From: an uncultured Gammaproteobacteria bacterium
GTDB lineage: Bacteria > Pseudomonadota > Gammaproteobacteria > Arenicellales > JAANXG01
Assembly (NCBI GenBank): GCA_947258785.1
Contig: CAMYJT010000005.1
Coordinates: 26,993 to 90,992, forward strand
Direction of reading: 5' to 3'
DNA: 64,000 bases
Positions 3,691 through 49,994 of this stretch are shown here, in pieces (the first letter of the stretch is position 1; each line of letters starts with the position of its first letter). A program made the position numbers and the translations under genes. Below the pieces are notes generated by a model. It saw nothing but the letters and a program-made list of their open reading frames with translations. It searched no databases and had not been told where the DNA came from.

Positions 3691-4413
3691 ATGCGCCTGT
3701 CCCGCCTCATGTCGATGCGCGGTTTGTGTTCGCGTCGCGAAGCGGATCGCCTCATCCAACTCGGCCAGGTCCAAGTCGACGGTATAGCGGTAACGGAACT
3801 CGGCACCCGGGTCAGTCCGGACTGCCGAATTTCCGTGTCTCCGTCGGCCCAAAGCGATCAGCGCCAGCGGGTGACCATCCTGTTGAACAAGCCGGTTGGC
3901 TACGTCTCGGCTCAACCGGAACGCGGCTACCTGCCGGCCACATCCTTGATCTCGAGACACAACCAATATCGCGGTGATCGATCCGCACTGCGCTACCGGC
4001 CCAGACACCGGCACAACCTCGCTCCGGCCGGGCGGCTGGATATCGACTCGCAGGGCCTGCTGGTGCTCACCCAGGACGGGCGCATTGCACGCCGGTTGAT
4101 CGGTCCGGGCGCAGCGGTGGAGAAAGAGTATCTGGTGCGTGTTCAGGGAGAGCTAACCGAGACCACTCTGCAGGGCCTGCGCGGCACCTTGAGCTTGGAT
4201 GGCCACCAACTGAAACCCGTGCGCGTCGAACAAGTCAATACCGAGCAGTTGCAATTTGTACTCATCGAAGGGCGCAAGCGGCAAATTAGACGCATGTGTG
4301 CAATGGTCGGACTGGCAGTCACCGGGCTGAAACGCGTGCGCATCGGTGCAGTGACCTTGGGTGCACTACCCGAGGGACAGTGGCGGTATTTGGGCAGGCG
4401 CGAGCGCTTCTAA
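3691..4413 (+). CDS. rluF: 23S rRNA pseudouridine synthase, RsuA/RluF family
   Basis: The S4-like N-terminus is [22 protein letters not shown]. Further motifs are [34 protein letters not shown] and RQIRRMC. I prefer the ATG at 3691 over the track start at 3640. Confidence 0.8.
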
Positions 4414-4513
4414 GCTTAGTTGCTGCCGCGTGCGTCATTGAATGTGATATCTTTCCAACCACCGAGCACGCATTAGTGGGAGCATCGCTATCAGAGCATT
4501 TCCCGTTCTTTAC

Positions 4514-5596
4514 ATGTTGATCCGCCCGCTGCTGTTCGCTCTCGACCCGGAATTCAGCCACAATCTTGCCATCTCCGCTCTAACCCGCCTCTCGAAAAGC
4601 GGTTCTTTTCTGAGACTTCTGCACCGCTCTGCTGCAACACCGGAAGCTTGCCTCGCTGCGTCGGTCATGGGGCTGCGGTTCGCCAATCCCTTGGGACTGG
4701 CCGCCGGATTTGACAAGCACGCGACGGCATTCCCGGCGCTGGGAGCGATGGGATTCGGCTATGTTGAAGTGGGCACGGTGACGCCCGAACCGCAACCGGG
4801 AAATCCAGCCAAGCGCATGTTCCGTCTGCAGCGTGATCTCGCACTGATAAACCGTATGGGTTTCAACAGTGTTGGACTGAATCGCGTAGTCGCGAATCTA
4901 CGCGCCGTTTCGTGTCCAACGCCGTTGGGTGTCAACTTAGGCAAGAACGCAGCTACTCCAATCGAGCAAGCGACACAAGACTATCTGAAGGGCCTCGTGG
5001 CGGTTTATCCCCATACCGATTACGTTGCCATTAACGTATCCTCTCCCAATACCGAATCGCTTCGTGAACTGCAGAAAGACCGCCGCCTTGACCGTCTGCT
5101 GTCTGCGTTGACTGAACGCCGAACCGAACTGAGCGATCGGCATAAGCGATTTGTTCCAATTGCGCTGAAAATTGCCCCGGACCTCAGCGACTATGAGCTG
5201 GCGCACATCGCCGATCGTGCGGTGAGGCATCGGCTCGACGCCATCATCGCCACCAACACAACGGTTCAGAGATCGGAGACCCTACGCTCACGATCCGCTT
5301 CCGAGGGGGGCGGCTTGAGCGGCAGGCCTCTCAAGCCACTGGCCACTCTTACCATCGGCAAACTCTATCGGGAACTGAAAGGCGAGCTACCGATCATCGG
5401 TGTCGGCGGCATTGAAACGGCGGAGGATGCCTGGGAAAAACTTGTCGCCGGCGCAGACTTGTTGCAACTATACACCAGCTTTGTATTTCGGGGGCCGGAA
5501 GTGGTCAATGGTATTCTGTCCGGTCTTGCAACACGGGTGAAGAGTATGCACAGTACGGACATCGCATCGGCGGTTCGACAACTGAGGTCACACTAG
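4514..5596 (+). CDS. pyrD: dihydroorotate dehydrogenase (quinone), class 2
   Basis: The 360-aa ORF has the motifs GLAAGFDK, GFNSVGL, NVSSPNT and IGVGGI. Confidence 0.93.
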   Translation: MLIRPLLFALDPEFSHNLAISALTRLSKSGSFLRLLHRSAATPEACLAASVMGLRFANPLGLAAGFDKHATAFPALGAMGFGYVEVGTVTPEPQPGNPAKRMFRLQRDLALINRMGFNSVGLNRVVANLRAVSCPTPLGVNLGKNAATPIEQATQDYLKGLVAVYPHTDYVAINVSSPNTESLRELQKDRRLDRLLSALTERRTELSDRHKRFVPIALKIAPDLSDYELAHIADRAVRHRLDAIIATNTTVQRSETLRSRSASEGGGLSGRPLKPLATLTIGKLYRELKGELPIIGVGGIETAEDAWEKLVAGADLLQLYTSFVFRGPEVVNGILSGLATRVKSMHSTDIASAVRQLRSH

Positions 5597-7011: not shown

Positions 7012-7034
7012 GACATTACATGAGACATTCAGAT

Positions 7035-7379
7035 ATGCCTTATTTGAAACTACAAACCAATCAAACGCTTACCGGTGAGGAAAAAATCGGCCTGTGTAAA
7101 ATCACTTCCGAATGCATTGCGGAGAGTTTAAACAAATCTGAAAAGTACGTCATGGTGACCATCCAGTCCGATCAGATCATGACATTCGCCGGTACCAATG
7201 AAGCGTGTGCGTACATTGAACTTAAGTCCATAGAGTTGCCCCGCGACCGCGTGTCGGAACTGTCCACCAAACTGTGCAATATGATCCAGCGTAATGTGGG
7301 CGCCGCGCCGGAACGCATCTACATTGAGTTCACGGATTCCTCGAGGGACATGTGGGGGTGGGATGGCAAGACATTCTGA
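7035..7379 (+). CDS. MIF/tautomerase-superfamily protein
   Basis: I chose the ATG at 7035 so that the protein begins MPYLKLQTN, which gives the catalytic Pro1 typical of tautomerases. The length is ~114 aa. The track ORF starts 5 codons earlier. Confidence 0.65.
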   Translation: MPYLKLQTNQTLTGEEKIGLCKITSECIAESLNKSEKYVMVTIQSDQIMTFAGTNEACAYIELKSIELPRDRVSELSTKLCNMIQRNVGAAPERIYIEFTDSSRDMWGWDGKTF

Positions 7380-7409
7380 TGGAAGACAGTGCCTGTCGAA
7401 GCCGGCTAA

Positions 7410-7653
7410 ACCGCAATTTGCACCAGGACGGCAGGAAGAAGAGTTAACATCTTGTTTGGCACAAGATATGCAATCAATGCCTAGCGTAACACTTTGTGCC
7501 CAGGCAGGCGCCTATCCCGGCGCTGGCTCAGTCCCGAACGCCTGGACTTGCGCTTCACTCAATCCATAGCTACGGCTATGCATTCGTTCCAGAACGGCGG
7601 CCTCACCGCCCGATCCCTTTGCCATCATCCGGATCCTCGGTGCAATAGGCGGG
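7410..7653 (+). mobile_element. MITE-like element, copy A (244 bp)
   Basis: The imperfect terminal inverted repeats are accgcaatttgcaccagg (left) and cctcggtgcaataggcggg (right). The flanks are CTAA (7406-7409) and TTAA (7654-7657). The ~150-bp core aligns with copies at 13037-13279 and 47568-47839. Confidence 0.75.
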
Positions 7654-7833
7654 TTAAAAGCCTTGGTTTGTCGCGCCGCCGGTACCCATTAGCCAGCAGT
7701 AAGTGACCGGCGGATTCGGCGGGTACCGACATCGGCCGGGAAACCCTCACCGGGCAGACACCGGTGATTGCGCCGGTGCGCAACACGTTATACTCATCAG
7801 AATCGGTCTTGAATCCCTGGGAAAAAGCGATTT

Positions 7834-8877
7834 ATGGAATACGACTATCTCGGCGCCAGCGACATAAAGGTGAGCAAGATCTGCCTGGGCAGCATGACCT
7901 GGGGGGAACAAAACTCAGAGACGGAGTCTCATCAACAGTTGGATCTGGCGCTGGATCGCGGCGTAAACTTCATCGATACCGCTGAAATGTACTCTGTGCC
8001 GTCGCGCGAACCGACCTGCGGCGCCAGCGAGACTATAATCGGCAACTGGCTGGCCAAACACGGTGCCCGCGACCGGGTCGTTATTGCCACCAAAGTAGTA
8101 GGCCCGGCGGCGAGTTGGATGCCCTACATCCGTCAGGCTAACACCCACTTGGACAGAGCCAATATCCACAGCGCGCTCGACGGCAGCCTGAAACGCCTGC
8201 AGACCGAGTACATCGACTTGTATCAGGTGCATTGGCCGGAGCGCGACACCAACTACTTCGGCAAGTTGGGATACGAGCCTACGGGCCGCGAGCCCGAAGT
8301 TTCGCTGGAAGAAACACTGCAAGCTCTTGACGACTGTGTTCGGTCCGGAAAGGTCCGCGCCATCGGTGTTTCCAATGAAACGCCTTGGGGTGTGATGCGC
8401 TATTTGCATCTGTCCGAATCCCTGGGAATTTCCAGAATCGTCAGCGTCCAGAACCCATACAGCCTGCTCAACCGAACCTTTGATGTCGGTTTGGCCGAAA
8501 TCGCGCTTCAGGAAAAGGTGGGCTTACTGGCCTATTCACCCTTGGGATTTGGTGTGCTGACCGGAAAGTACCTGGACGGAGCGCGGCCCGCAGGGGCGCG
8601 ATTGACCTTATTCGACCAGTTCAAACGCTACCAGAGTCAGCAGGCCCGCACCGCGACGGCGGAATATGCACAAATCGCGTCACGCCACGGACTGAGTCTG
8701 CCGCAGATGGCTCTGTCCTACGTGAACAGCCGATGTTTCCTTACCAGCACCATTATCGGCGCAACAAATCTGGAACAGTTGGCGGAAGACATCGACAGCA
8801 TCGAACTGCGGCTGGCTGAAGAAGTGTTAGCGGATATTGAACGCGTCCACAATGCTAATCCGAACCCCGCGCCTTAA
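7834..8877 (+). CDS. tas: NADP(H)-dependent aldo/keto reductase, Tas-like
   Basis: The 347-aa ORF begins MEYDYLGASDIKVSKICLGSMTWGEQNSE...GVNFIDTAEMY and has YQVHWP. Confidence 0.85.
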   Translation: MEYDYLGASDIKVSKICLGSMTWGEQNSETESHQQLDLALDRGVNFIDTAEMYSVPSREPTCGASETIIGNWLAKHGARDRVVIATKVVGPAASWMPYIRQANTHLDRANIHSALDGSLKRLQTEYIDLYQVHWPERDTNYFGKLGYEPTGREPEVSLEETLQALDDCVRSGKVRAIGVSNETPWGVMRYLHLSESLGISRIVSVQNPYSLLNRTFDVGLAEIALQEKVGLLAYSPLGFGVLTGKYLDGARPAGARLTLFDQFKRYQSQQARTATAEYAQIASRHGLSLPQMALSYVNSRCFLTSTIIGATNLEQLAEDIDSIELRLAEEVLADIERVHNANPNPAP

Positions 8878-11274: not shown

Positions 11275-11883
11275 CTAACCTATCTGCGAGACTTTCAGCA
11301 GCCGTCTGAGATCCTTGCGCATGGCAGTGGGATCCGCATCCGGCGGATAACTCATCATTAAATTTCCCAAAGGATCGACAACGTATATGCGTTGGACGTC
11401 ATCAAGCGGTGTCTGGTTCCCAACCTCGAACTGTTCCACCAATTGTTCGAATGCCGCATCAACCCCAAACAGGGTGACGACACCCGGGTATCGTTTAATC
11501 AATTCCTGTAAACGCTGTCCACCGGCGCTGGCCCGCAGCAGATACACACTCTGTACGCGGTGCGTATTCTTGTTTTGTGCCAACCGCACTCGCTGTATCT
11601 TGTACAGGCTTTCCTCACAGACACGATCGCAGAGCTTGTTTCCGACATAGATCAAAGTCCATTTCCCGCGCAGAGCGCTGAACGCAAATGACGTTCCGTC
11701 CATTCGTTGCAAGCCGACGTCCTGAATCACTCGGGCAGGTTGCAGCAGATCGCCATAGTTGATTTGACCGGAAGGCTTCCACAAAAGCGCAGCCGCCACC
11801 GGTAAAACAAATACCAGTCCGATCATCAACAGCTGCCAGCGGCCGGGTCGACCGGTGGATTGCATTAGCTCAGAACGGCTCAT
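11275..11883 (-). CDS. SCO-like thioredoxin-fold cytochrome oxidase assembly protein
   Basis: It has an N-terminal TM helix and [21 protein letters not shown] (a CxxxC motif as in Sco1/SenC). I chose the start MSRSEL at 11883, which abuts the surf1 stop. The track ORF extends to 11970 inside surf1. Confidence 0.6.
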
Positions 11884-12623
11884 AAGCGGATTTTTTGAGC
11901 GGGTTGTTTCATCGGCTGAATATTGACCAAAACGTAAATAATCACCAGTGCGGCAGACAGTGCAAACCATTGAAACGCGTAACCGCGGTGCCGCTCCACC
12001 CAGCTGTCACGATAATCGGGCCATTCGCGGACAAATCCACCTGCCTCGACCGCATTGCCGTCCAGTTCCAAGATCAGCGGCTCTACCGGAAATGCCACCA
12101 CCCGCTGATAACGGGCCAGATTCAAGTTCTGCCAGACGTCTTGGGGCGGGGGTCCGGATTCGTCCTCCAGCGTAAAATAGTCGGTCGCAGGGCGCCGCAA
12201 TCGACCCGAAACCACCATCTCATATGATGGCGTATCAAACGACGGCAGGACATGCCGTTCCGCACTCCATGGGATCCAACCCCGGTTGACCAGGATACGG
12301 CGGTCGGTGCCCTCGAGGTGCAGCGGGGTTAACACATGAAAACCAGGCTGACCATGATGAACACGATTGTCGAGCAGTATTTGATGAAGAGGTTCGAACC
12401 TGCCGCGGCCTGTAGCTCGACGTAAATCATCCAACTTCGGGTCCAACCGTTGACCCCCCAACTCCAATGGGCTCATCTGACCGCGTTGCAGATAATCCCG
12501 CTGCAGCGCCTGCTTCTGCCCCGCGCGGTCCAACTGCCAGAATCCCAAACCGACCAACAGCGGCAAAAGCACCAGCACCACCAGGGTCGGGACGAGAGTT
12601 AGCTTGAATCGATAACTGGCCAT
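11880..12623 (-). CDS. SURF1-family cytochrome oxidase assembly protein
   Basis: The 247-aa ORF has TM helices at both the N- and C-termini. It contains GFWQLDR and NRGWIP and sits in the cox cluster. Confidence 0.85.
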   Translation of the reverse strand: MASYRFKLTLVPTLVVLVLLPLLVGLGFWQLDRAGQKQALQRDYLQRGQMSPLELGGQRLDPKLDDLRRATGRGRFEPLHQILLDNRVHHGQPGFHVLTPLHLEGTDRRILVNRGWIPWSAERHVLPSFDTPSYEMVVSGRLRRPATDYFTLEDESGPPPQDVWQNLNLARYQRVVAFPVEPLILELDGNAVEAGGFVREWPDYRDSWVERHRGYAFQWFALSAALVIIYVLVNIQPMKQPAQKIRL

Positions 12624-12699
12624 GTGTGTTTGCGGTCAAGCACGGTCGAGGCGGTGAATTCTGCTACAATGCTGCGTCTTCGCCCGCTGTTTAAAGTTC

Positions 12700-12939
12700 A
12701 TGTGGATCAAAGTCATCGTCCTGGCGTTACTGGCACTCATGCTGTACAGCCTTTTTTCGGGTTTGTTTTTCCTGGTCAAAGATCGTGGACAAGGCAGCCG
12801 CACACTGCGAGCGCTCACTGCGCGCATTTCTATCTGGGTCGTCCTGTTTGTCCTGCTGTGCGCAGGCATATACACCGGGGTAATCACCCCCTCGAACTCC
12901 CTGCGCCCGACGACCGTCCAGTCGCCCGTGCCCCGATAA
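12700..12939 (+). CDS. twin-transmembrane-helix small protein (DUF2909/HIG1-like)
   Basis: The 79-aa ORF has two hydrophobic helices. It occupies the position between coxC and surf1 that is conserved in proteobacterial cox clusters. Confidence 0.7.
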   Translation: MWIKVIVLALLALMLYSLFSGLFFLVKDRGQGSRTLRALTARISIWVVLFVLLCAGIYTGVITPSNSLRPTTVQSPVPR

Positions 12940-13036
12940 AGCCCTGGCGGCCAACCGGCCGCAAAGGCATCCGCGTTAAGAGTGGCCACCGCCTTATCAC
13001 ACAGCTCGCAGGAAAGGCCGCGAAGCGGATGCCTAG

Positions 13037-13279
13037 CCTGCATATTGCACCAAGGCGGCGAAATAATGGTGTATCAACATGATTGTGCTCAATGATTCGG
13101 TCTTAGGTGATTAGTACAGTTTGTGCTTCCGCAATCGCCTATCCCGGCCCTGGCTCGATCTCGAACGTCTGCACTTGCGCTTCACTCAACCCATAGCTCG
13201 CTATGGGTTTTGTTCCAGCGCGGCGTACAGACGCCCGATCTCTTCGCCAGCTTCCGGGATCCTTGGTGCAATATGCAGG
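13037..13279 (+). mobile_element. MITE-like element, copy B (243 bp)
   Basis: The perfect 19-bp terminal inverted repeats are cctgcatattgcaccaagg (13037-13055) and ccttggtgcaatatgcagg (13261-13279). A direct CTAG flanks both sides (13033-13036 and 13280-13283). Confidence 0.85.
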
Positions 13280-14161
13280 CTAGAACACGTACACAAAAAT
13301 AAACAGGCCGACCCACACCGTGTCTACAAAGTGCCAGTACCACGCACCGGCCTCGAACGCGAAGTGGTTCTCCGGCTTGAAGTGACCGCGCAGACAGCGC
13401 AGCCAGACGACCAGCAGGATGATCGCACCGACCGTTACGTGGAGCCCGTGAAAACCGGTCAACATGAAAAACGTTGCGCCGTAGACACCCGTGCCCAAAG
13501 TCAATCCGAGTTCTTGGTAAGCGTGGGCGTACTCCTTGCCCTGTAAGAACAAAAACATTGCGCCCAGCACCAATGTGATACCCAACCACACAATTAGCTT
13601 GCGCCGCTCATTCATCTTCAAGGCGTGGTGAGCGATGGTGACGGTGACACTGGACAACAGCAGTAGCCCGGTGTTGACGACCGGAATGCCCCAAGCGCCG
13701 ATCGTGGAAAACTGCCGGCTGGGATCGGCGACCACGGTGTCGGCTTCGATGGGTAACGGTCCTTTAGGTCCGGCGGTCGGCCATCCTCCCTCGTAGCCCG
13801 GCCACAACAGATCGGTATCCGCCAACCATGGTACAGCCAAAGATCGGGTGTAAAACAAAGCGCTGAAAAACGCCGCGAAGAACATCACCTCCGAGAAGAT
13901 GAACCACATCATGCTCATGCGGAAGGACAGGCCGACATGGTCATTGTACATGCCACCCTCGCTCTCCCGGATCACCCTGCCGAACCACCCGAACATCATG
14001 AAAATGATGGTTGCCGCGCCAAATCCCATCAACCAGGGCCCGGTTTTGCCCTCGTTGAGAAACAACATTAATCCCAACAGCGTGGTAAACAGCCCGATGG
14101 AACCGATGATGGGCCAGGCACTTGGATTCGGCAGGTAATAGCCATCTCGCGAGCCACTCAT
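13280..14161 (-). CDS. coxC: cytochrome c oxidase subunit III
   Basis: The 293-aa 7-TM protein contains FHGLHVTVG and WYWHFVDTVW. Confidence 0.93.
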   Translation of the reverse strand: MSGSRDGYYLPNPSAWPIIGSIGLFTTLLGLMLFLNEGKTGPWLMGFGAATIIFMMFGWFGRVIRESEGGMYNDHVGLSFRMSMMWFIFSEVMFFAAFFSALFYTRSLAVPWLADTDLLWPGYEGGWPTAGPKGPLPIEADTVVADPSRQFSTIGAWGIPVVNTGLLLLSSVTVTIAHHALKMNERRKLIVWLGITLVLGAMFLFLQGKEYAHAYQELGLTLGTGVYGATFFMLTGFHGLHVTVGAIILLVVWLRCLRGHFKPENHFAFEAGAWYWHFVDTVWVGLFIFVYVF

Positions 14162-32976: not shown

Positions 32977-33004
32977 TTGACAAGTCCGGCTAAACGGTTA
33001 TGTT
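32977..33004 (+). promoter_or_regulatory. sigma70-type promoter of wHTH gene 1 (near-leaderless)
   Basis: The promoter is TTGACA-N16-TATGTT. The -10 element ends 7 nt before the ATG at 33012, and there is no SD. Confidence 0.5.
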
Positions 33005-33011
33005 ACTTGTA

Positions 33012-33587
33012 ATGACACATAAAAGTACTAAAAATACAAACGTATTTGGTGGGCTTGTCACCTCGAAAATACGCATACAGATTCTCATGCGCTTGCTCTT
33101 GAATCCTCAAAACAAGGCCTATCTGCGCGGAATGGCCAAGGAATTCGGCGCCTCCCCAGGCCAGCTGCGAGACGAGCTCAACCAGCTCGCAAACGCCGAC
33201 ATCCTCAAAACCGAACGAGTCGGGCGCCAGGTGTTTTACCAGGCCAATCGCGAGCACGCGTTGTTTCCCGAGCTCAACTCCATGGTGCGCAAAGCACTGG
33301 GTATGGATCGTATCCTCGACAGTATCCTCCGGCGCCTGGGAGACCTCGAGCGCGCTGCCCTGATCGACGACTATGCGGAAGGCAGGGACAGCGGGCTCAT
33401 CGACCTGGTGCTGCTCGGCAATATTGACCACGACAACCTCTCTGATCTGACGCGCAAGACGGAGAAGTACCTGAGCCGGCGGATCCGCACCCTGGTCTAC
33501 GAATCCGGCGACGAGCGGGCGTTTGAAAACCTGCTGAAGGGGAGACCGAGCCTATTGCTCTGGAAAAGGGGCACCGATGACAGATAG
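33012..33587 (+). CDS. ArsR-like winged-HTH regulator with C-terminal degenerate nucleotidyltransferase-like domain, paralog 1
   Basis: The wHTH region is FGGLVTSKIRIQILMRLLLNPQNKAYLRGMAKEFGASPGQLRDELNQLANADIL. The C-terminal region contains DSGLIDLVLLG. I chose the start at 33012 because MTHKSTKNTNVFGG aligns residue-for-residue with MNNKLNKYQNLFGG of the paralog at 42313-42912. Confidence 0.6.
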   Translation: MTHKSTKNTNVFGGLVTSKIRIQILMRLLLNPQNKAYLRGMAKEFGASPGQLRDELNQLANADILKTERVGRQVFYQANREHALFPELNSMVRKALGMDRILDSILRRLGDLERAALIDDYAEGRDSGLIDLVLLGNIDHDNLSDLTRKTEKYLSRRIRTLVYESGDERAFENLLKGRPSLLLWKRGTDDR

Positions 33588-47839: not shown

Positions 47840-48805
47840 TTAGCCTCCCCAGGCGGCGCTGAGCATCGCCACACCCTGAGCGCCTGCGTGTTTTGCCTCG
47901 GACAGGTGATCCAGGTCCATCCCACCTAAGGCAAAAACCGGTAAATTCGCACCGTGGCACAAAACCGCGAACCGCTCCCAACCCAGCGGCACGGCTCCCG
48001 GGTGGGACTCGGTCTCGAACACTGGTCCAAGCACTGCGAAATCCGCATCGATCCGCTCGGCCATAGCCAATTCCTCCGCGTTGTGGCAAGAAGCGGCCAC
48101 CCAATACGAACGCGGCAGAGGACGGTGCTGGCAAGCCCGCAACCGCGCCGACGTCAAGTGTATCCCGTCGACGTCCATGCCGAGCGCGGTCTCTGGCGCT
48201 GCGTTAATCAACACCCTAGCCCCACAAGCCCGGCAACGGCCCGCAACTACGCGCACGAACTCATGCCAAGCGTAGTCATCCATATGCTTCTCGCGCACCT
48301 GGACCAGGCCACCGGGCTGCAGCCCTGCATCGAGCGCCGACAGGATCCTGGCACACCCGAACCTTGCCGCCGCAGTGATCAGGTAACGATCCGGCAGCTG
48401 CAGCGATTTCACGACCGGCCGGTTTCCGCTCAACAGATCGACCGTTGCGAGGTCATCCGGGGCCAGCCACTGCAGGGCCTGACCCTCCCGTCCCACAGCT
48501 ACACCCCGATACGCGGTTACCCGCAATACATTCAGCGTGACCTTGCGCTCCGGGTAGTCGTGGCGCACGGTGATGAGTGGCTCAGTGCGGGACACATAAA
48601 TCCCCAACTCCTCCAGGCACTCGCGCCGCAAAGCCTGCTCGACAGTTTCGCCGGGTTTGAGTTTACCACCCGGGAATTCCCACTTGCCGAACTGATGGTG
48701 AGGGTAATTGCGCTGCGCGACGAGTACCCGTCCGGAGTGGTCCGTAATGATGCCAGCTGCGACTTCGATTCGATCAGCTGCGGTATTCCGCGTTGATACG
48801 GACAT
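47840..48805 (-). CDS. Nudix (MutT-like 8-oxo-dGTP diphosphatase) fused to ThiE/TenI-like domain
   Basis: The Nudix box is GKWEFPGGKLKPGETVEQALRRECLEELGI. The C-terminal half (HLTS...SCHNAEEL...ADFAVLGPVFET...VFALGG) is like thiamine-phosphate synthase. The start MSVSTR at 48805 would overlap argJ by 32 nt. The track ORF extends further upstream. Confidence 0.8.
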   Translation of the reverse strand: MSVSTRNTAADRIEVAAGIITDHSGRVLVAQRNYPHHQFGKWEFPGGKLKPGETVEQALRRECLEELGIYVSRTEPLITVRHDYPERKVTLNVLRVTAYRGVAVGREGQALQWLAPDDLATVDLLSGNRPVVKSLQLPDRYLITAAARFGCARILSALDAGLQPGGLVQVREKHMDDYAWHEFVRVVAGRCRACGARVLINAAPETALGMDVDGIHLTSARLRACQHRPLPRSYWVAASCHNAEELAMAERIDADFAVLGPVFETESHPGAVPLGWERFAVLCHGANLPVFALGGMDLDHLSEAKHAGAQGVAMLSAAWGG

Positions 48806-49994
48806 ATTCGTTCGACAAATCACAGGTCCAGACCTCGGCTTGCTGATCGCCCATGCCGAGGTCAACCGTGACACGCAAATCCACCGGCGCCATGGCCGCC
48901 TGACCCAATTCTTCCCGATAGGCCGCGGCCACGGCACCGCGATCGAAAATCTCCAGTCCGTTGATGACCAGGCGGACTTTCTGAAAATCGAGTCCGGCAA
49001 CACCGGCACGGCCGACCGCGGCCAGCAGACGCCCCCAGTTTGGATCACTGGCGAAGAAAGCGGTCTTGACCAACGGCGAATGCGCTATGGTGTAGGCGAC
49101 CGACAAACAGTCCTCTTCGCTTGCCCCGCCAACCACATTCAGCGTCACGTATTTGGTCGCACCCTCGGCATCACGTACAACGGCCTGCGCCAGCTTCCGG
49201 GCCACATCGCAAACCGCCGCGGCTAGTCGATCGTACGCCGGGTCATGCGGGGAAGAAATCTTACTATTGCCGGCCGCACCTGTGGCGAGCAGCACACAGG
49301 CATCGTTGGTGGAAGTATCGCCGTCCACGGTGATGCGGTTGAAGCTGCGCCCCACCACCCACCGCAGGCAATTCTGCAGCAGGCTTTGCTCCACCGCCGC
49401 GTCGGTGGCCAGGAAAGCGAGCATGGTCGCCATGTCGGGGCGAATCATCCCGACGCCCTTGGCAATGCCCGTGACGGTGACCGGTTGTCCGTCCACATCG
49501 ATGCGGGCGGTCGCGCCCTTGGGAACGGTGTCGGTCGTCATAATCGCCCTTGCGGCGTCTTCCCACGCGTCGGGACGCAGCCGTTGAACGCACTGTCCAA
49601 TCCCTTCCAACATACGCGTCACGGGCAGCCGCTCCCCAATCACGCCCGTTGAAAACGGCAGCACTTGTTCGGGATCCACACCGATAAAAGCCGCCGTCCC
49701 GGTACAGATTCGCCTGGCGTCATCGACACCCAGCTGACCGGTACCCGCATTTGCACACCCACTGTTTACAACGAAAACACGCGGTTGCCTGCGTTGCAAA
49801 TGTTCCCTGGCCACCAATACGGGCGCCGCATAGAATTGATTCTGAGTAAACACCGCCGCGCAGTTCGTATCCGGTGCACACTCCAATACCGCGACATCGT
49901 CGCGCGACGATTGACGAATCCCAGCGCGTGCTACGGCCCAGCGTACCCCCGGCACGAGTAGCAATGCCGAGTCCTTTGTGTCATCTACAGACAT
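48774..49994 (-). CDS. argJ: bifunctional ornithine acetyltransferase/N-acetylglutamate synthase ArgJ
   Basis: It has the autoprocessing-site context PDMATMLAFLATDA and the C-terminus NAEYRS. The start MSVDD at 49994 gives ~406 aa. The longer track ORF runs into secA. Confidence 0.9.
   Translation of the reverse strand: MSVDDTKDSALLLVPGVRWAVARAGIRQSSRDDVAVLECAPDTNCAAVFTQNQFYAAPVLVAREHLQRRQPRVFVVNSGCANAGTGQLGVDDARRICTGTAAFIGVDPEQVLPFSTGVIGERLPVTRMLEGIGQCVQRLRPDAWEDAARAIMTTDTVPKGATARIDVDGQPVTVTGIAKGVGMIRPDMATMLAFLATDAAVEQSLLQNCLRWVVGRSFNRITVDGDTSTNDACVLLATGAAGNSKISSPHDPAYDRLAAAVCDVARKLAQAVVRDAEGATKYVTLNVVGGASEEDCLSVAYTIAHSPLVKTAFFASDPNWGRLLAAVGRAGVAGLDFQKVRLVINGLEIFDRGAVAAAYREELGQAAMAPVDLRVTVDLGMGDQQAEVWTCDLSNEYVRINAEYRS

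What the first reader, a model, noticed from the sequence alone, without database searches (positions are those of the whole stretch)
13037..13279. A MITE-like element family has three copies with 19-bp terminal inverted repeats and YTAR-type 4-bp flanks
**Seen.**
- Copy B (13037-13279) has perfect 19-bp TIRs, cctgcatattgcaccaagg and its reverse complement. A direct CTAG lies on both sides.
- Copy A (7410-7653, same orientation) has degenerate versions of the same ends, with flanks CTAA and TTAA.
- Copy C (47568-47839, inverted) also has degenerate versions of the same ends, with flanks TTGG and TTAG.
- A ~150-bp right-hand core is clearly alignable among all three copies, for example ctatcccggcg..ggctc...cgaac..ctg.acttgcgcttcac. 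The left ~90 bp is divergent apart from the TIR.
- No transposase gene lies in the window.

**Established.** Short TIR-bounded non-autonomous elements with target-site duplications are MITEs. A 4-bp YTAR target is characteristic of IS5-group elements.

**Inference.** This is an IS5-related MITE family, and the parent IS lies elsewhere or has been lost.
Basis: partly seen in the sequence, partly recalled or inferred. Interest (0 to 1): 0.6.

Follow-up and report, generated by a model that had tools for sequence, protein, structure and literature searches.

The report
New hairpin-forming MITE family, YTAR targets
The three ~250-bp repeats are copies of a small non-coding jumping element (a MITE) that is common in uncultured Gammaproteobacteria, inserts at YTAR sites and folds into a long, evolutionarily maintained hairpin. 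It is a new family of an ordinary kind of element, and its transposase is still unknown.

Summary
Three copies lie at 7410-7653 (+), 13037-13279 (+) and 47568-47839 (-). Copy B has perfect 19-bp TIRs and CTAG on both sides; A and C are decayed.

They belong to a large family. The same 19-nt TIR occurs on 89 metagenome contigs, including AT-richer relatives and 34-180-bp deletion derivatives.

Mobility is shown by a precise filled/empty pair (L049 vs L034). It is also shown by presence/absence differences between the window and syntenic MAG loci, and by a tandem pair sharing TTAA. The flanks are direct 4-bp YTAR duplications: the outer positions co-vary directly and there is no signal at a fifth position.

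The element is non-coding. It forms a long rod with strong covariation (29/55 pairs changed on both sides). The fold is markedly better on one strand (G·U 132 vs A·C 16; that strand is more stable in 70/72 copies).

No transposase was found in the window, in about 1.3 Mb of related loci, or through the protein database. The "IS5-related" label therefore rests only on the YTAR/4-bp signature.

Verdict: a new member of a known kind (a MITE without a known parent), with an unexplained strand-specific fold.

The parts
13037..13279 (+). Copy B, the intact family member (243 bp)
   Evidence: Profile hit at E 2.7e-57. The fold z-score is -7 on the plus strand and -12 on the minus strand. It lies inside the cytochrome c oxidase operon, between COX3 (13280-14161, -) and SURF1 (11880-12623, -).
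13037..13055 (+). Left TIR of copy B (cctgcatattgcaccaagg)
   Evidence: It is the exact reverse complement of 13261-13279.
13261..13279 (+). Right TIR of copy B
   Evidence: This is helix H1 of the consensus structure, with 12 of 17 pairs changed on both sides across the family.
13033..13036 (.). Left target-site duplication of copy B (CTAG)
13280..13283. Right target-site duplication of copy B (CTAG); its complement supplies the TAG stop codon of COX3
   Evidence: The COX3 ORF 13280-14161 (-) ends here.
13139..13260 (-). Conserved rod (helices H2-H6), which folds best on the minus strand
   Evidence: Pairs include CCCGG/CCGGG, TGGC/GCCA and CTGNAC/GTNCAG, plus the tip hairpin.
13190..13207 (.). 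Tip hairpin of copy B (cccatagctcgctatggg)
   Evidence: This is helix H6. Five of its 9 pairs change on both sides across the family, for example CAUAGC/GCUAUG versus GGUAGC/GCUACC.
13116..13144 (.). Conserved junction motif ACAGTTTGT...CTATCC (minus strand GGAUAG...ACAAACUGU) next to the rod
   Evidence: CTATCC is invariant in 38 sequences. GGATAGGACAAASTGTA is kept in the AT-rich relatives.
7410..7653 (+). Copy A (decayed), lying between the MIF-like gene (7020-7379) and the aldo-keto reductase gene (7834-8877)
   Evidence: Profile hit at E 2.4e-49 and z about -2. The syntenic locus L058 has the same two genes with a ~110-bp spacer and no element.
7406..7409 (.). Left flank of copy A (CTAA)
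7654..7657 (.). Right flank of copy A (TTAA)
47568..47839 (-). Copy C (decayed, long-left-arm subfamily), lying between the convergent genes coaE (+) and NUDIX/TMP-synthase (-)
   Evidence: Profile hit at E 7.6e-40 and z about -1. Gene identities come from Pfam.
47564..47567 (.). Flank of copy C (TTGG), probably a mutated TTAG
   Evidence: The coaE ORF now runs through it and stops 30 nt inside the element.
47840..47843 (.). Flank of copy C (TTAG); its complement supplies the TAA stop codon of the NUDIX/TMP-synthase gene
   Evidence: The ORF 47840-49048 (-) ends here.

Best explanation
The three sequences are copies of a non-autonomous DNA transposon, a MITE of about 245-290 bp. A transposase encoded elsewhere (inferred, not found) recognises the conserved 19-bp terminal inverted repeats. 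It inserts the element at 5'-YTAR-3' with staggered cuts, which are repaired into a 4-bp direct duplication. YTAR contains TAG/TAA, and such sites are scarce inside GC-rich genes. Insertions therefore pile up at or just after stop codons and in spacers. The interior is not a gene. It is a long, imperfect foldback (rod) whose base pairing has been kept by compensatory changes across deeply diverged subfamilies. It pairs much better on one strand. I infer that a single-stranded form of that strand, RNA or DNA, matters for the element's success: either for its mobilisation or for being tolerated next to host genes. Shown: copy family, TIRs, duplication, insertion polymorphism, non-coding nature, covarying strand-biased fold. 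Inferred: a DDE-type transposase acting in trans, and the role of the fold.
For: Family size:
- 125 profile hits.
- 89 metagenome contigs carry the exact TIR. These include about 20 full copies and many shorter TIR-bounded derivatives.

TIRs: they are present in nearly all full copies. They differ between subfamilies but stay mutually complementary.

Duplication:
- Flanks are CTAG/CTAG in 22 of 61 copies.
- Non-palindromic pairs are direct, never inverted: CTAA/CTAA in L074 and L060, TTAG/TTAG in L094, and TTAG/TTAG in L058 (read in L058's own plus orientation). Five more such pairs occur in metagenome copies.
- Outer positions match directly (p = 0.0002 and < 0.0002), with no signal one base further out.

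Mobility:
- L049 reads GGATAG[element]CTAGACC, while orthologous L034 reads GGATAAACC.
- The window lacks the copies present in syntenic L058, L007 and L059, and L058 lacks copy A.
- A tandem pair shares TTAA.

Non-coding:
- Variability shows no 3-base periodicity (0.51/0.46/0.52).
- The frame is broken in copy B's subfamily.
- There is no Pfam hit.
- The database holds only 37-81 aa hypothetical ORF calls.

Fold:
- 96.7% of cells are paired, against 87.0% in shuffles and about 35% in slid controls.
- 29 of 55 pairs changed on both sides.
- The covariation score is 0.307 against 0.131, reached by 0 of 500 shuffles.
- Intact copies score z = -6 to -12.

Consistency with the literature: MITE transcripts characteristically form stable stem-loops (PMC10969869). 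IS5 makes YTAR duplications (PMC5009759).
Against: - No autonomous partner was found. There is none in the window. None lies in about 0.87 Mb of genome loci or 0.47 Mb of metagenome loci. None was found in PLSDB plasmids.
- No long protein shares the element's open frame.
- A purely DNA-level, transposase-binding model does not predict the strong strand asymmetry of the fold: G·U 132 vs A·C 16, and the minus strand more stable in 70 of 72 copies.
- It also does not predict invariant bases in internal loops.
- The left outer flank base is more variable than the right one (C in 31/61 vs 51/61). A simple 4-bp duplication does not explain this.
Confidence: 0.75

Rival explanations
1. The element is mainly a functional structured RNA module, for example an mRNA 3'-end stabiliser, processing site or terminator-like hairpin. 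It happens to be mobile. Selection acts on the RNA of the better-folding strand and on what it does for neighbouring genes.
For: - The rod covaries and is strand-specific, with conserved G·U pairs and purine-rich internal loops (GGAGCGA / GAGUGA, which can form tandem G·A pairs).
- In some copies the tip hairpin is replaced by a longer A-run/stem/T-run hairpin.
- Copies sit at gene ends.
- Copy B is intact and lies inside the cox operon with its well-folding strand in the mRNA sense.
- The MITE literature proposes such roles (PMC10969869).
Against: - There is no Rfam family, even at E <= 1.
- No sigma-70-like promoter or intrinsic terminator was detected in the two intact copies scanned: window copy B and L084.
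- Between co-directional genes the weaker-folding strand is usually the sense strand (23 vs 4, crude gene calls). That is the opposite of what a useful mRNA element would show.
- Dozens of copies per genome, decayed copies (A, C) and deletion derivatives fit a selfish element better.
Confidence: 0.15
2. The element moves as single-stranded DNA. Its fold on one strand would be the substrate of a host-encoded nicking/HUH or recombinase enzyme. The analogues are REP sequences with RAYT, IS200/IS605 ends, and folded attC sites.
For: - There is a strong one-strand bias of the fold, including within the TIR helix (G·U 39 vs A·C 6).
- No IS-borne transposase was found despite wide sampling.
- The 19-nt TIR is extremely conserved across GC-rich and AT-rich relatives.
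Against: - Direct 4-bp duplications and terminal inverted repeats are the signature of staggered-cut (DDE-type) integration.
- By my own knowledge of these families, REP/RAYT and IS200/IS605 elements make no duplication and have no TIRs.
- No candidate enzyme gene was seen next to any copy.
Confidence: 0.06
3. The conserved core encodes a small protein: the 38-aa frame MMAKGSGG...SEAQVQ..PG* on the minus strand.
For: The frame is open, with ATG and TAG, in several subfamilies. Gene callers have annotated it as a hypothetical protein 71 times.
Against: - Variability shows no codon periodicity.
- Amino-acid changes follow stem covariation (HSRSYG to GSRSYH) rather than conservation.
- The start codon is absent and the frame is shifted in copy B's subfamily.
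- There is no Pfam match.
- Open frames are expected in GC-rich DNA.
Confidence: 0.02
4. The sequences are conserved, immobile intergenic regulatory DNA that was inherited vertically.
For: Some insertions are shared between species-level MAGs at about 90% flank identity (L016/L088 and L022/L076).
Against: - The copies lie at unrelated loci next to unrelated genes.
- A precise empty site exists, along with presence/absence differences in syntenic regions.
- Flanking direct repeats are present.
Confidence: 0.01

Closest known systems
MITEs and ISs of the IS5 family (IS5 group: 4-bp YTAR duplication; IS711/IS427 group: TA within YTAR)
   Same: The target is the YTAR consensus, with a 4-bp direct duplication as for IS5 (PMC5009759). 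The element is short, TIR-bounded and non-coding.
   Different: No IS5-family transposase or IS with matching ends was found. The TIR does not resemble E. coli IS5's end; that comparison was recalled from memory and is a lead only. IS711 duplicates only TA (PMC2266754), whereas here all four positions behave as a direct repeat.
IS701 family
   Same: The target duplication is exactly 4 bp (PMC2266710).
   Different: The published end consensus ---YACT-Y--YR is not matched by CCCGCATATTGCACC in any register. No IS701-type transposase was seen.
Correia elements of Neisseria (own knowledge)
   Same: Both are 100-150-bp-class TIR elements with no known transposase and many copies at gene ends. Their transcripts fold into hairpins. 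Both have a palindromic TA-containing target.
   Different: Correia elements duplicate TA only, are shorter, and pair essentially through their TIRs. Here a ~120-nt internal rod covaries and is strand-biased.
ERIC/IRU imperfect palindromes of enterobacteria (own knowledge)
   Same: Both are long imperfect palindromes in transcribed spacers. Behaviour depends on orientation.
   Different: ERIC elements have no clear TIR/TSD signature. The host range and sequence are unrelated.
BrickBuilt MITE of Porphyromonas gingivalis (PMC4596501)
   Same: Both are MITEs that carry an internal minisatellite of ~22-23 nt units. Here the unit is GCTTGTCCCCGCACCGCAGGGG x4 in some copies.
   Different: Here the minisatellite is an optional insertion at one point of the rod, not the body of the element.

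Membership tests
MITE (miniature inverted-repeat transposable element) | Small size (tens to a few hundred bp) | tested here: met
   Window copies are 243-272 bp. Full copies elsewhere are 240-390 bp, and derivatives are 34-180 bp.
MITE (miniature inverted-repeat transposable element) | Terminal inverted repeats | tested here: met
   Copy B has 19/19 complementary TIR bases. TIRs are present across the family and co-vary between subfamilies.
MITE (miniature inverted-repeat transposable element) | Flanking direct target-site duplication | tested here: met
   The duplication is 4-bp YTAR. The direct association of both outer positions gives p <= 0.0002. At least 8 non-palindromic identical pairs were seen and none inverted.
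MITE (miniature inverted-repeat transposable element) | No coding capacity for a transposase | tested here: met
   The longest conserved frame is 38 aa, with no periodicity, no Pfam match and no long homologue.
MITE (miniature inverted-repeat transposable element) | Multiple dispersed copies and insertion polymorphism | tested here: met
   There are dozens of copies per MAG. Filled and empty orthologous sites exist.
MITE (miniature inverted-repeat transposable element) | An autonomous IS with matching ends that can mobilise it | tested here: not met
   None was found in the window, in 198 related loci (about 1.3 Mb), in PLSDB or through the protein database. Whole host genomes could not be scanned, so absence is not proven. 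Many accepted bacterial MITEs also lack a known parent.
IS5 family (derivative of) | YTAR target with 4-bp duplication (IS5 group) | tested here: met
   the literature basis is.
IS5 family (derivative of) | TIRs homologous to those of an IS5-family element | not testable with these tools
   ISfinder is not available. A search with the TIR against PLSDB gave only chance-level hits.
IS5 family (derivative of) | Cognate DDE (DDE_Tnp_1-type) transposase in the same genomes | tested here: inconclusive
   phmmer with IS5 InsH (sequence recalled from memory) against all ORFs >= 100 aa of the window plus 109 loci gave no hit. Pfam on about 55 window ORFs found none. Only a few per cent of each host genome was sampled.
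IS701 family (derivative of) | Exact 4-bp duplication | tested here: met
   the literature basis is.
IS701 family (derivative of) | End consensus ---YACT-Y--YR | tested here: not met
   CCCGCATATTGCACC does not fit this consensus in any register (sequence, consensus). The paper notes that the consensus does not represent the whole family.
IS630/Tc1-mariner-type MITE | TA-only duplication (often within CTAG) | tested here: not met
   The outer flank bases behave as direct repeats: L0=R0 and L3=R3 are significant, and CTAA/CTAA and TTAG/TTAG pairs occur. A TA-only model does not predict this.
Known structured RNA family (Rfam) | Match to a curated covariance model | tested here: not met
   There was no hit at gathering thresholds in the window. 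There was none at E <= 1 in seven family-bearing loci.

The most novel reading that the evidence does not exclude
The element may be more than a passive MITE: a mobile module whose whole-length fold on one specific strand is the selected unit. That fold runs end to end, from the TIR helix through a ~120-nt rod with conserved G·U pairs and purine-rich loops, to a conserved GGAUAGG..ACAAACUGUA junction. This would mean it is mobilised or maintained through a single-stranded intermediate, either ssDNA recognised by a host-encoded, non-IS enzyme in the manner of REP/RAYT, or an RNA. That would explain why no IS parent can be found although the 19-nt ends are kept identical across very different hosts.
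Probability: 0.15. Interest if true: 0.7.

Novelty: new member of a known kind. Interest (0 to 1): 0.4.

Why it matters
The finding gives a named, testable repeat family for a poorly known group of environmental Gammaproteobacteria. The hosts include MAGs labelled Woeseiaceae and Ectothiorhodospiraceae.

Practical consequences:
- Gene callers currently annotate copies as 37-81 aa 'hypothetical proteins'. These calls can be removed.
- The copies alter gene ends. coaE in the window is extended by 10 codons. Stop codons of COX3 and the NUDIX/TMP-synthase gene lie in the duplicated YTAR.
- The copies are useful markers of insertion polymorphism between related MAGs.

The more interesting point is mechanistic. 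The fold is conserved by covariation over a wide divergence and is clearly better on one strand, yet the ends and duplication look like a classical DDE element with no parent in sight. If the strand bias reflects a single-stranded intermediate or an RNA role, the family would be a good model for how parentless bacterial MITEs, such as Correia elements, spread and persist.

Tried and rejected
1. Small protein, or N-terminus of the parent transposase. I suspected a DUF4096-like 'LSEAQ' motif. Pfam at E <= 10 gave nothing. Variability showed no codon periodicity. Rejected.

2. Known RNA family. Rfam gave nothing at gathering and at E <= 1, for both GC-rich and AT-rich variants.

3. Parent IS.
- Left-half fragments in L069 and L060 are truncated copies next to host genes.
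- A weak InsH hit in L022 is a CCA-adding enzyme region.
- There were no repeats >= 450 bp between non-orthologous loci.
- PLSDB searches with the element and with the TIR found nothing useful.
- A metagenome scan with the TIR gave apparent 1.85-kb and 2.6-kb TIR pairs. These are neighbouring small copies.
- ORFs beside unpaired TIRs look, by eye from their translations, like porin, M23 peptidase, FlgL, GyrB, FtsH, an HD-GYP protein and a P4-type integrase. These were not run through a family scan.

4. TA-only duplication with a G...C terminal pair (IS630-like). Rejected on the flank statistics.

5. Internal promoter or terminator. None was found.

6. I first took L091 4597-4851 to be the orthologue of copy B. 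Its flanks differ, so it is only the closest relative.

7. Literature. No paper in the library contains the TIR string.

8. The look-up of encoding contigs with the window's PilC found no record, so the source genome is not in that collection under that exact protein.

Full report
**1. What is in the window**

The three sequences are exactly as described.
- Copy B (13037-13279, +) has perfect 19-bp terminal inverted repeats and CTAG on both sides.
- Copy A (7410-7653, +) has worn versions of the ends, with flanks CTAA and TTAA.
- Copy C (47568-47839, -) also has worn ends, with flanks TTGG and TTAG.

The right-hand ~150 bp aligns in all three copies, and the left ~90 bp differs. Chance is excluded:
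- A two-block core pattern hits only these three places (0 expected).
- A family profile finds them at E = 1e-40 to 1e-57 and finds nothing else in the window.

Only B still folds well (z = -7 / -12). A and C are decayed (z about -2 and -1).

Pfam scans of about 55 predicted proteins show an ordinary core chromosomal stretch. It contains mnmA, purB, a cytochrome c oxidase operon, bio genes, pilSR/pilA and a glycosyltransferase cluster. It continues with pilBCD-coaE, argJ, secA, lpxC and ftsZAQ-ddl-murBCG-ftsW. There is no transposase or integrase.

**2. It is a large family**

- 91 matches have the family spacing. All but a few lie in uncultured Gammaproteobacteria MAGs. These include MFD09779, MFD05684, MFD03551, Co_bin.66, FCS_M_Gamma_073/074/077 and ES_Gamma_065. 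Others are labelled Ectothiorhodospiraceae (ES_M_Gamma_051), Woeseiaceae, Lysobacterales and (one, L064) Chloroflexaceae.
- The 45/48/50-nt matches are unrelated coding sequences.
- A profile finds 125 hits in these blocks, often several per 8 kb.

A metagenome scan with the 19-nt TIR gave 89 contigs. They carry the following:
- about 20 full copies;
- AT-richer relatives (GC 0.43-0.50) with the identical TIR and the same architecture;
- many shorter TIR-bounded derivatives of 34-61, 122 and 163-180 bp.

The window's three copies belong to three subfamilies. This is why their left parts look unrelated.

**3. It is mobile, and the duplication is 4 bp**

The flanks are overwhelmingly YTAR: CTAG/CTAG in 22 of 61 copies. 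Because CTAG and TTAA are palindromes, I tested a 4-bp duplication against 'TA plus a G...C terminal pair'.
- The two outer positions match directly between left and right flanks (p = 0.0002 and < 0.0002 by permutation).
- The next position outward shows nothing.
- Non-palindromic flanks are always direct, never inverted. Examples are CTAA/CTAA in L074 and L060, TTAG/TTAG in L094, TTAG/TTAG in L058 (its own plus orientation), and five more in metagenome copies.

A precise filled/empty pair exists. L049 reads GGATAG[element]CTAGACC where the orthologous L034 reads GGATAAACC, and there the TAA is the stop codon of the upstream gene.

Against syntenic MAG loci, the window lacks the copies present in L058, L007 and L059. 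L058 in turn has the MIF and aldo-keto reductase genes with a ~110-bp spacer and no copy A.

Other footprints of activity:
- a tandem pair sharing one TTAA (L059);
- a half-element ending at an internal pseudo-end (L083);
- one site occupied in opposite orientations in two species (L034 vs L049).

**4. It is not a gene**

A 38-aa frame (MMAKGSGG...SEAQVQ..PG*) is open on the minus strand in several subfamilies. However:
- Copy B's subfamily lacks the start codon and is frame-shifted.
- Column variability has no 3-base periodicity (0.51/0.46/0.52).
- Pfam finds nothing.
- A profile search of the 5.8-billion-protein collection finds only 71 ORF calls of 37-81 aa, and no transposase-sized protein with this N-terminus.
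- Where the peptide changes (HSRSYG to GSRSYH), the changes are those that keep a hairpin paired.

**5. The interior is a covarying rod, better on one strand**

On a MAFFT alignment of 33 non-redundant copies, the consensus structure has six helices, H1-H6. H1 is the TIR helix. Four helices form the rod: AUCCCGG/CCGGGAU, UGGC/GCCA, a 13-bp helix and GCGCU/AGCGC. H6 is the tip hairpin CAUAGC-loop-GCUAUG.

Pair counts on this structure:

| Measure | Observed | Control |
|---|---|---|
| Cells forming standard pairs | 96.7% | 87.0% shuffled; about 35% slid |
| Pairs changed on both sides | 29 of 55 | n/a |
| Covariation score | 0.307 | 0.131 (0 of 500 shuffles reach it) |

The structure was derived from these same sequences, which inflates 'percentage paired'. 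The double changes are less affected, and so is the persistence of the same architecture in AT-rich relatives whose rods have diverged strongly.

The fold is strand-biased. 'Minus' means the complement of copies A and B as they lie in the window.
- RNAalifold gives -67.9 kcal/mol for the minus strand against -21.8 for the plus strand on the same columns.
- In the same pairs there are 132 G·U but only 16 A·C. This corresponds to 96.7% paired on the minus strand against 90.3% for the mirror image. The bias also holds within the TIR helix (39 vs 6).
- Copy by copy, the minus strand is the more stable in 59/61 GC-rich and 11/11 AT-rich copies, by a mean of 14.5 and 18.1 kcal/mol.
- Two adjacent pairs are kept as G·U or U·G across subfamilies.
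- The invariant internal loop GGAGCGA/GAGUGA can form tandem G·A pairs only on that strand.

The pair list came from a minus-strand prediction, which biases the G·U/A·C count. The copy-by-copy energies and the WC-majority subset (77 vs 21) point the same way.

There is no Rfam family. No sigma-70 promoter or intrinsic terminator was detected in the two intact copies scanned.

**6. Orientation**

I picked flanking genes by third-position GC, which is crude. On that basis, copies between co-directional genes have their plus (weaker-folding) strand in the mRNA sense 23 times and the minus strand 4 times (the simple longest-ORF method gave 27 vs 11). Flank GC skew is slightly positive in the plus orientation (+0.014, p = 0.03). 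I cannot separate transcription from replication with MAG fragments.

Copy B is one of the minority. It sits inside the cox operon with the strongly folding strand in the transcript, and it is the one intact copy in the window.

**7. The parent**

Nothing was found in any of the following:
- the window;
- about 0.87 Mb of genome loci;
- 0.47 Mb of metagenome loci, where every ORF next to an unpaired TIR looks like a host gene;
- PLSDB;
- the protein search.

From the literature:
- IS5 gives YTAR duplications (PMC5009759).
- IS711 duplicates TA within YTAR (PMC2266754).
- IS701 members make an exact 4-bp duplication, but their end consensus does not fit (PMC2266710).

'IS5-related' is therefore a reasonable guess but not a result.

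**8. Verdict**

This is a bona fide MITE family. It is new as far as Rfam, PLSDB and the paper library show. It has 4-bp YTAR duplications and no known autonomous partner.

- How it works, most likely (0.75): trans-mobilisation by a DDE-type transposase that binds the 19-bp ends.
- Unexplained: the conserved rod, its one-strand bias, the invariant loop and junction bases, the orientation bias and the asymmetric outer flank base.
- These features keep open a minority reading (about 0.15). In it, a single-stranded DNA or RNA form is central to the element's spread or persistence.

Novelty: a new member of a known kind. Interest: moderate.

Noticed in passing
L102 6362-6449; L012 6415-6512; also L039, L014, L006, L019, L026: Some copies carry a 22-nt minisatellite (GCTTGTCCCCGCACCGCAGGGG, 4-4.5 perfect copies). 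It is inserted at one fixed point of the rod, after ...CCAGCGCGGCG. Fragments of the same unit also occur outside full copies (for example L056 1081-1200 and L102 2807-2929).
   Followed up: partly
L019 400-723, L026 3202-3554, L105 7530-7788, L057 7228-7483, L049 6692-6969: In these copies the usual tip hairpin (CATAGC-TACG-GCTATG) is replaced by a longer one (AAAAAACGGGGTCGGAG...CTCTGACCCCGTTTTTT). It has A- and T-runs on either side, like a bidirectional intrinsic terminator.
   Followed up: no
window 46956-47597 and 47564-47597: The coaE reading frame runs through the TTGG flank of copy C and ends at a TGA 30 nt inside the element, adding 10 codons (...GWPASCTKDPG*). The flank was probably TTAG, giving the original stop. 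The stop codons of COX3 (13280-13282) and of the NUDIX/TMP-synthase gene (47840-47842) lie in the duplicated YTAR.
   Followed up: partly
window 33000-33587 (+) and 42313-42912 (-); repeat arms 33237-33418 / 42506-42687: Two paralogous genes without a significant Pfam family lie in inverted orientation (182 nt, 71% complementary). They bracket a ~9-kb cluster that includes glycosyltransferase genes, an ABC-transporter (Wzt-like) gene and a cytidylyltransferase gene.
   Followed up: no
L059 3228-3722: Two copies lie in tandem and share a single TTAA between them, as expected if the second copy inserted into the duplicated target of the first.
   Followed up: partly
L034 3018-3332 vs L049 about 4400-4665: The same orthologous TTAG site is occupied in two species by copies in opposite orientation. 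The L049 copy is truncated and filled with short tandem repeats (GTGCTTGTGCTGGTGCC...). This could be independent insertions into a hot spot, or an inversion.
   Followed up: no
L083 3077-3199; L046 1821-1985; L162 566-626; L180 6005-6065; L185 1616-1662; L129 4374-4407; L148/L176: There are deletion derivatives. One is a half-element ending at the internal pseudo-end CTATCCGGG|CTAG, which resembles the true right end. One ~165-bp copy lacks the core. The 34-61-bp minis consist of little more than the two TIRs.
   Followed up: partly
All full copies in L001-L109 (flank statistics): The first base of the left 4-mer is much more variable (C 31, T 19, A 7, G 4) than the first base of the right 4-mer (C 51, T 9, G 1). 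Both should be equal in a simple 4-bp duplication. This is unexplained. Possible causes are selection on stop codons of convergent genes or an asymmetric target preference.
   Followed up: partly
window 12636-13043 (-): The 135-aa ORF between copy B and SURF1 has its first ATG inside the left TIR of copy B (13041-13043) and no Pfam family. The real gene, if there is one, probably starts further in. A rival ORF lies on the plus strand (12624-13082).
   Followed up: no
L146 1214-3023: A 122-bp TIR-bounded mini-element lies just upstream of a gene that looks, by eye from its translation, like a P4-type tyrosine integrase. It is probably the edge of a genomic island and is not evidently connected with the element.
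   Followed up: no
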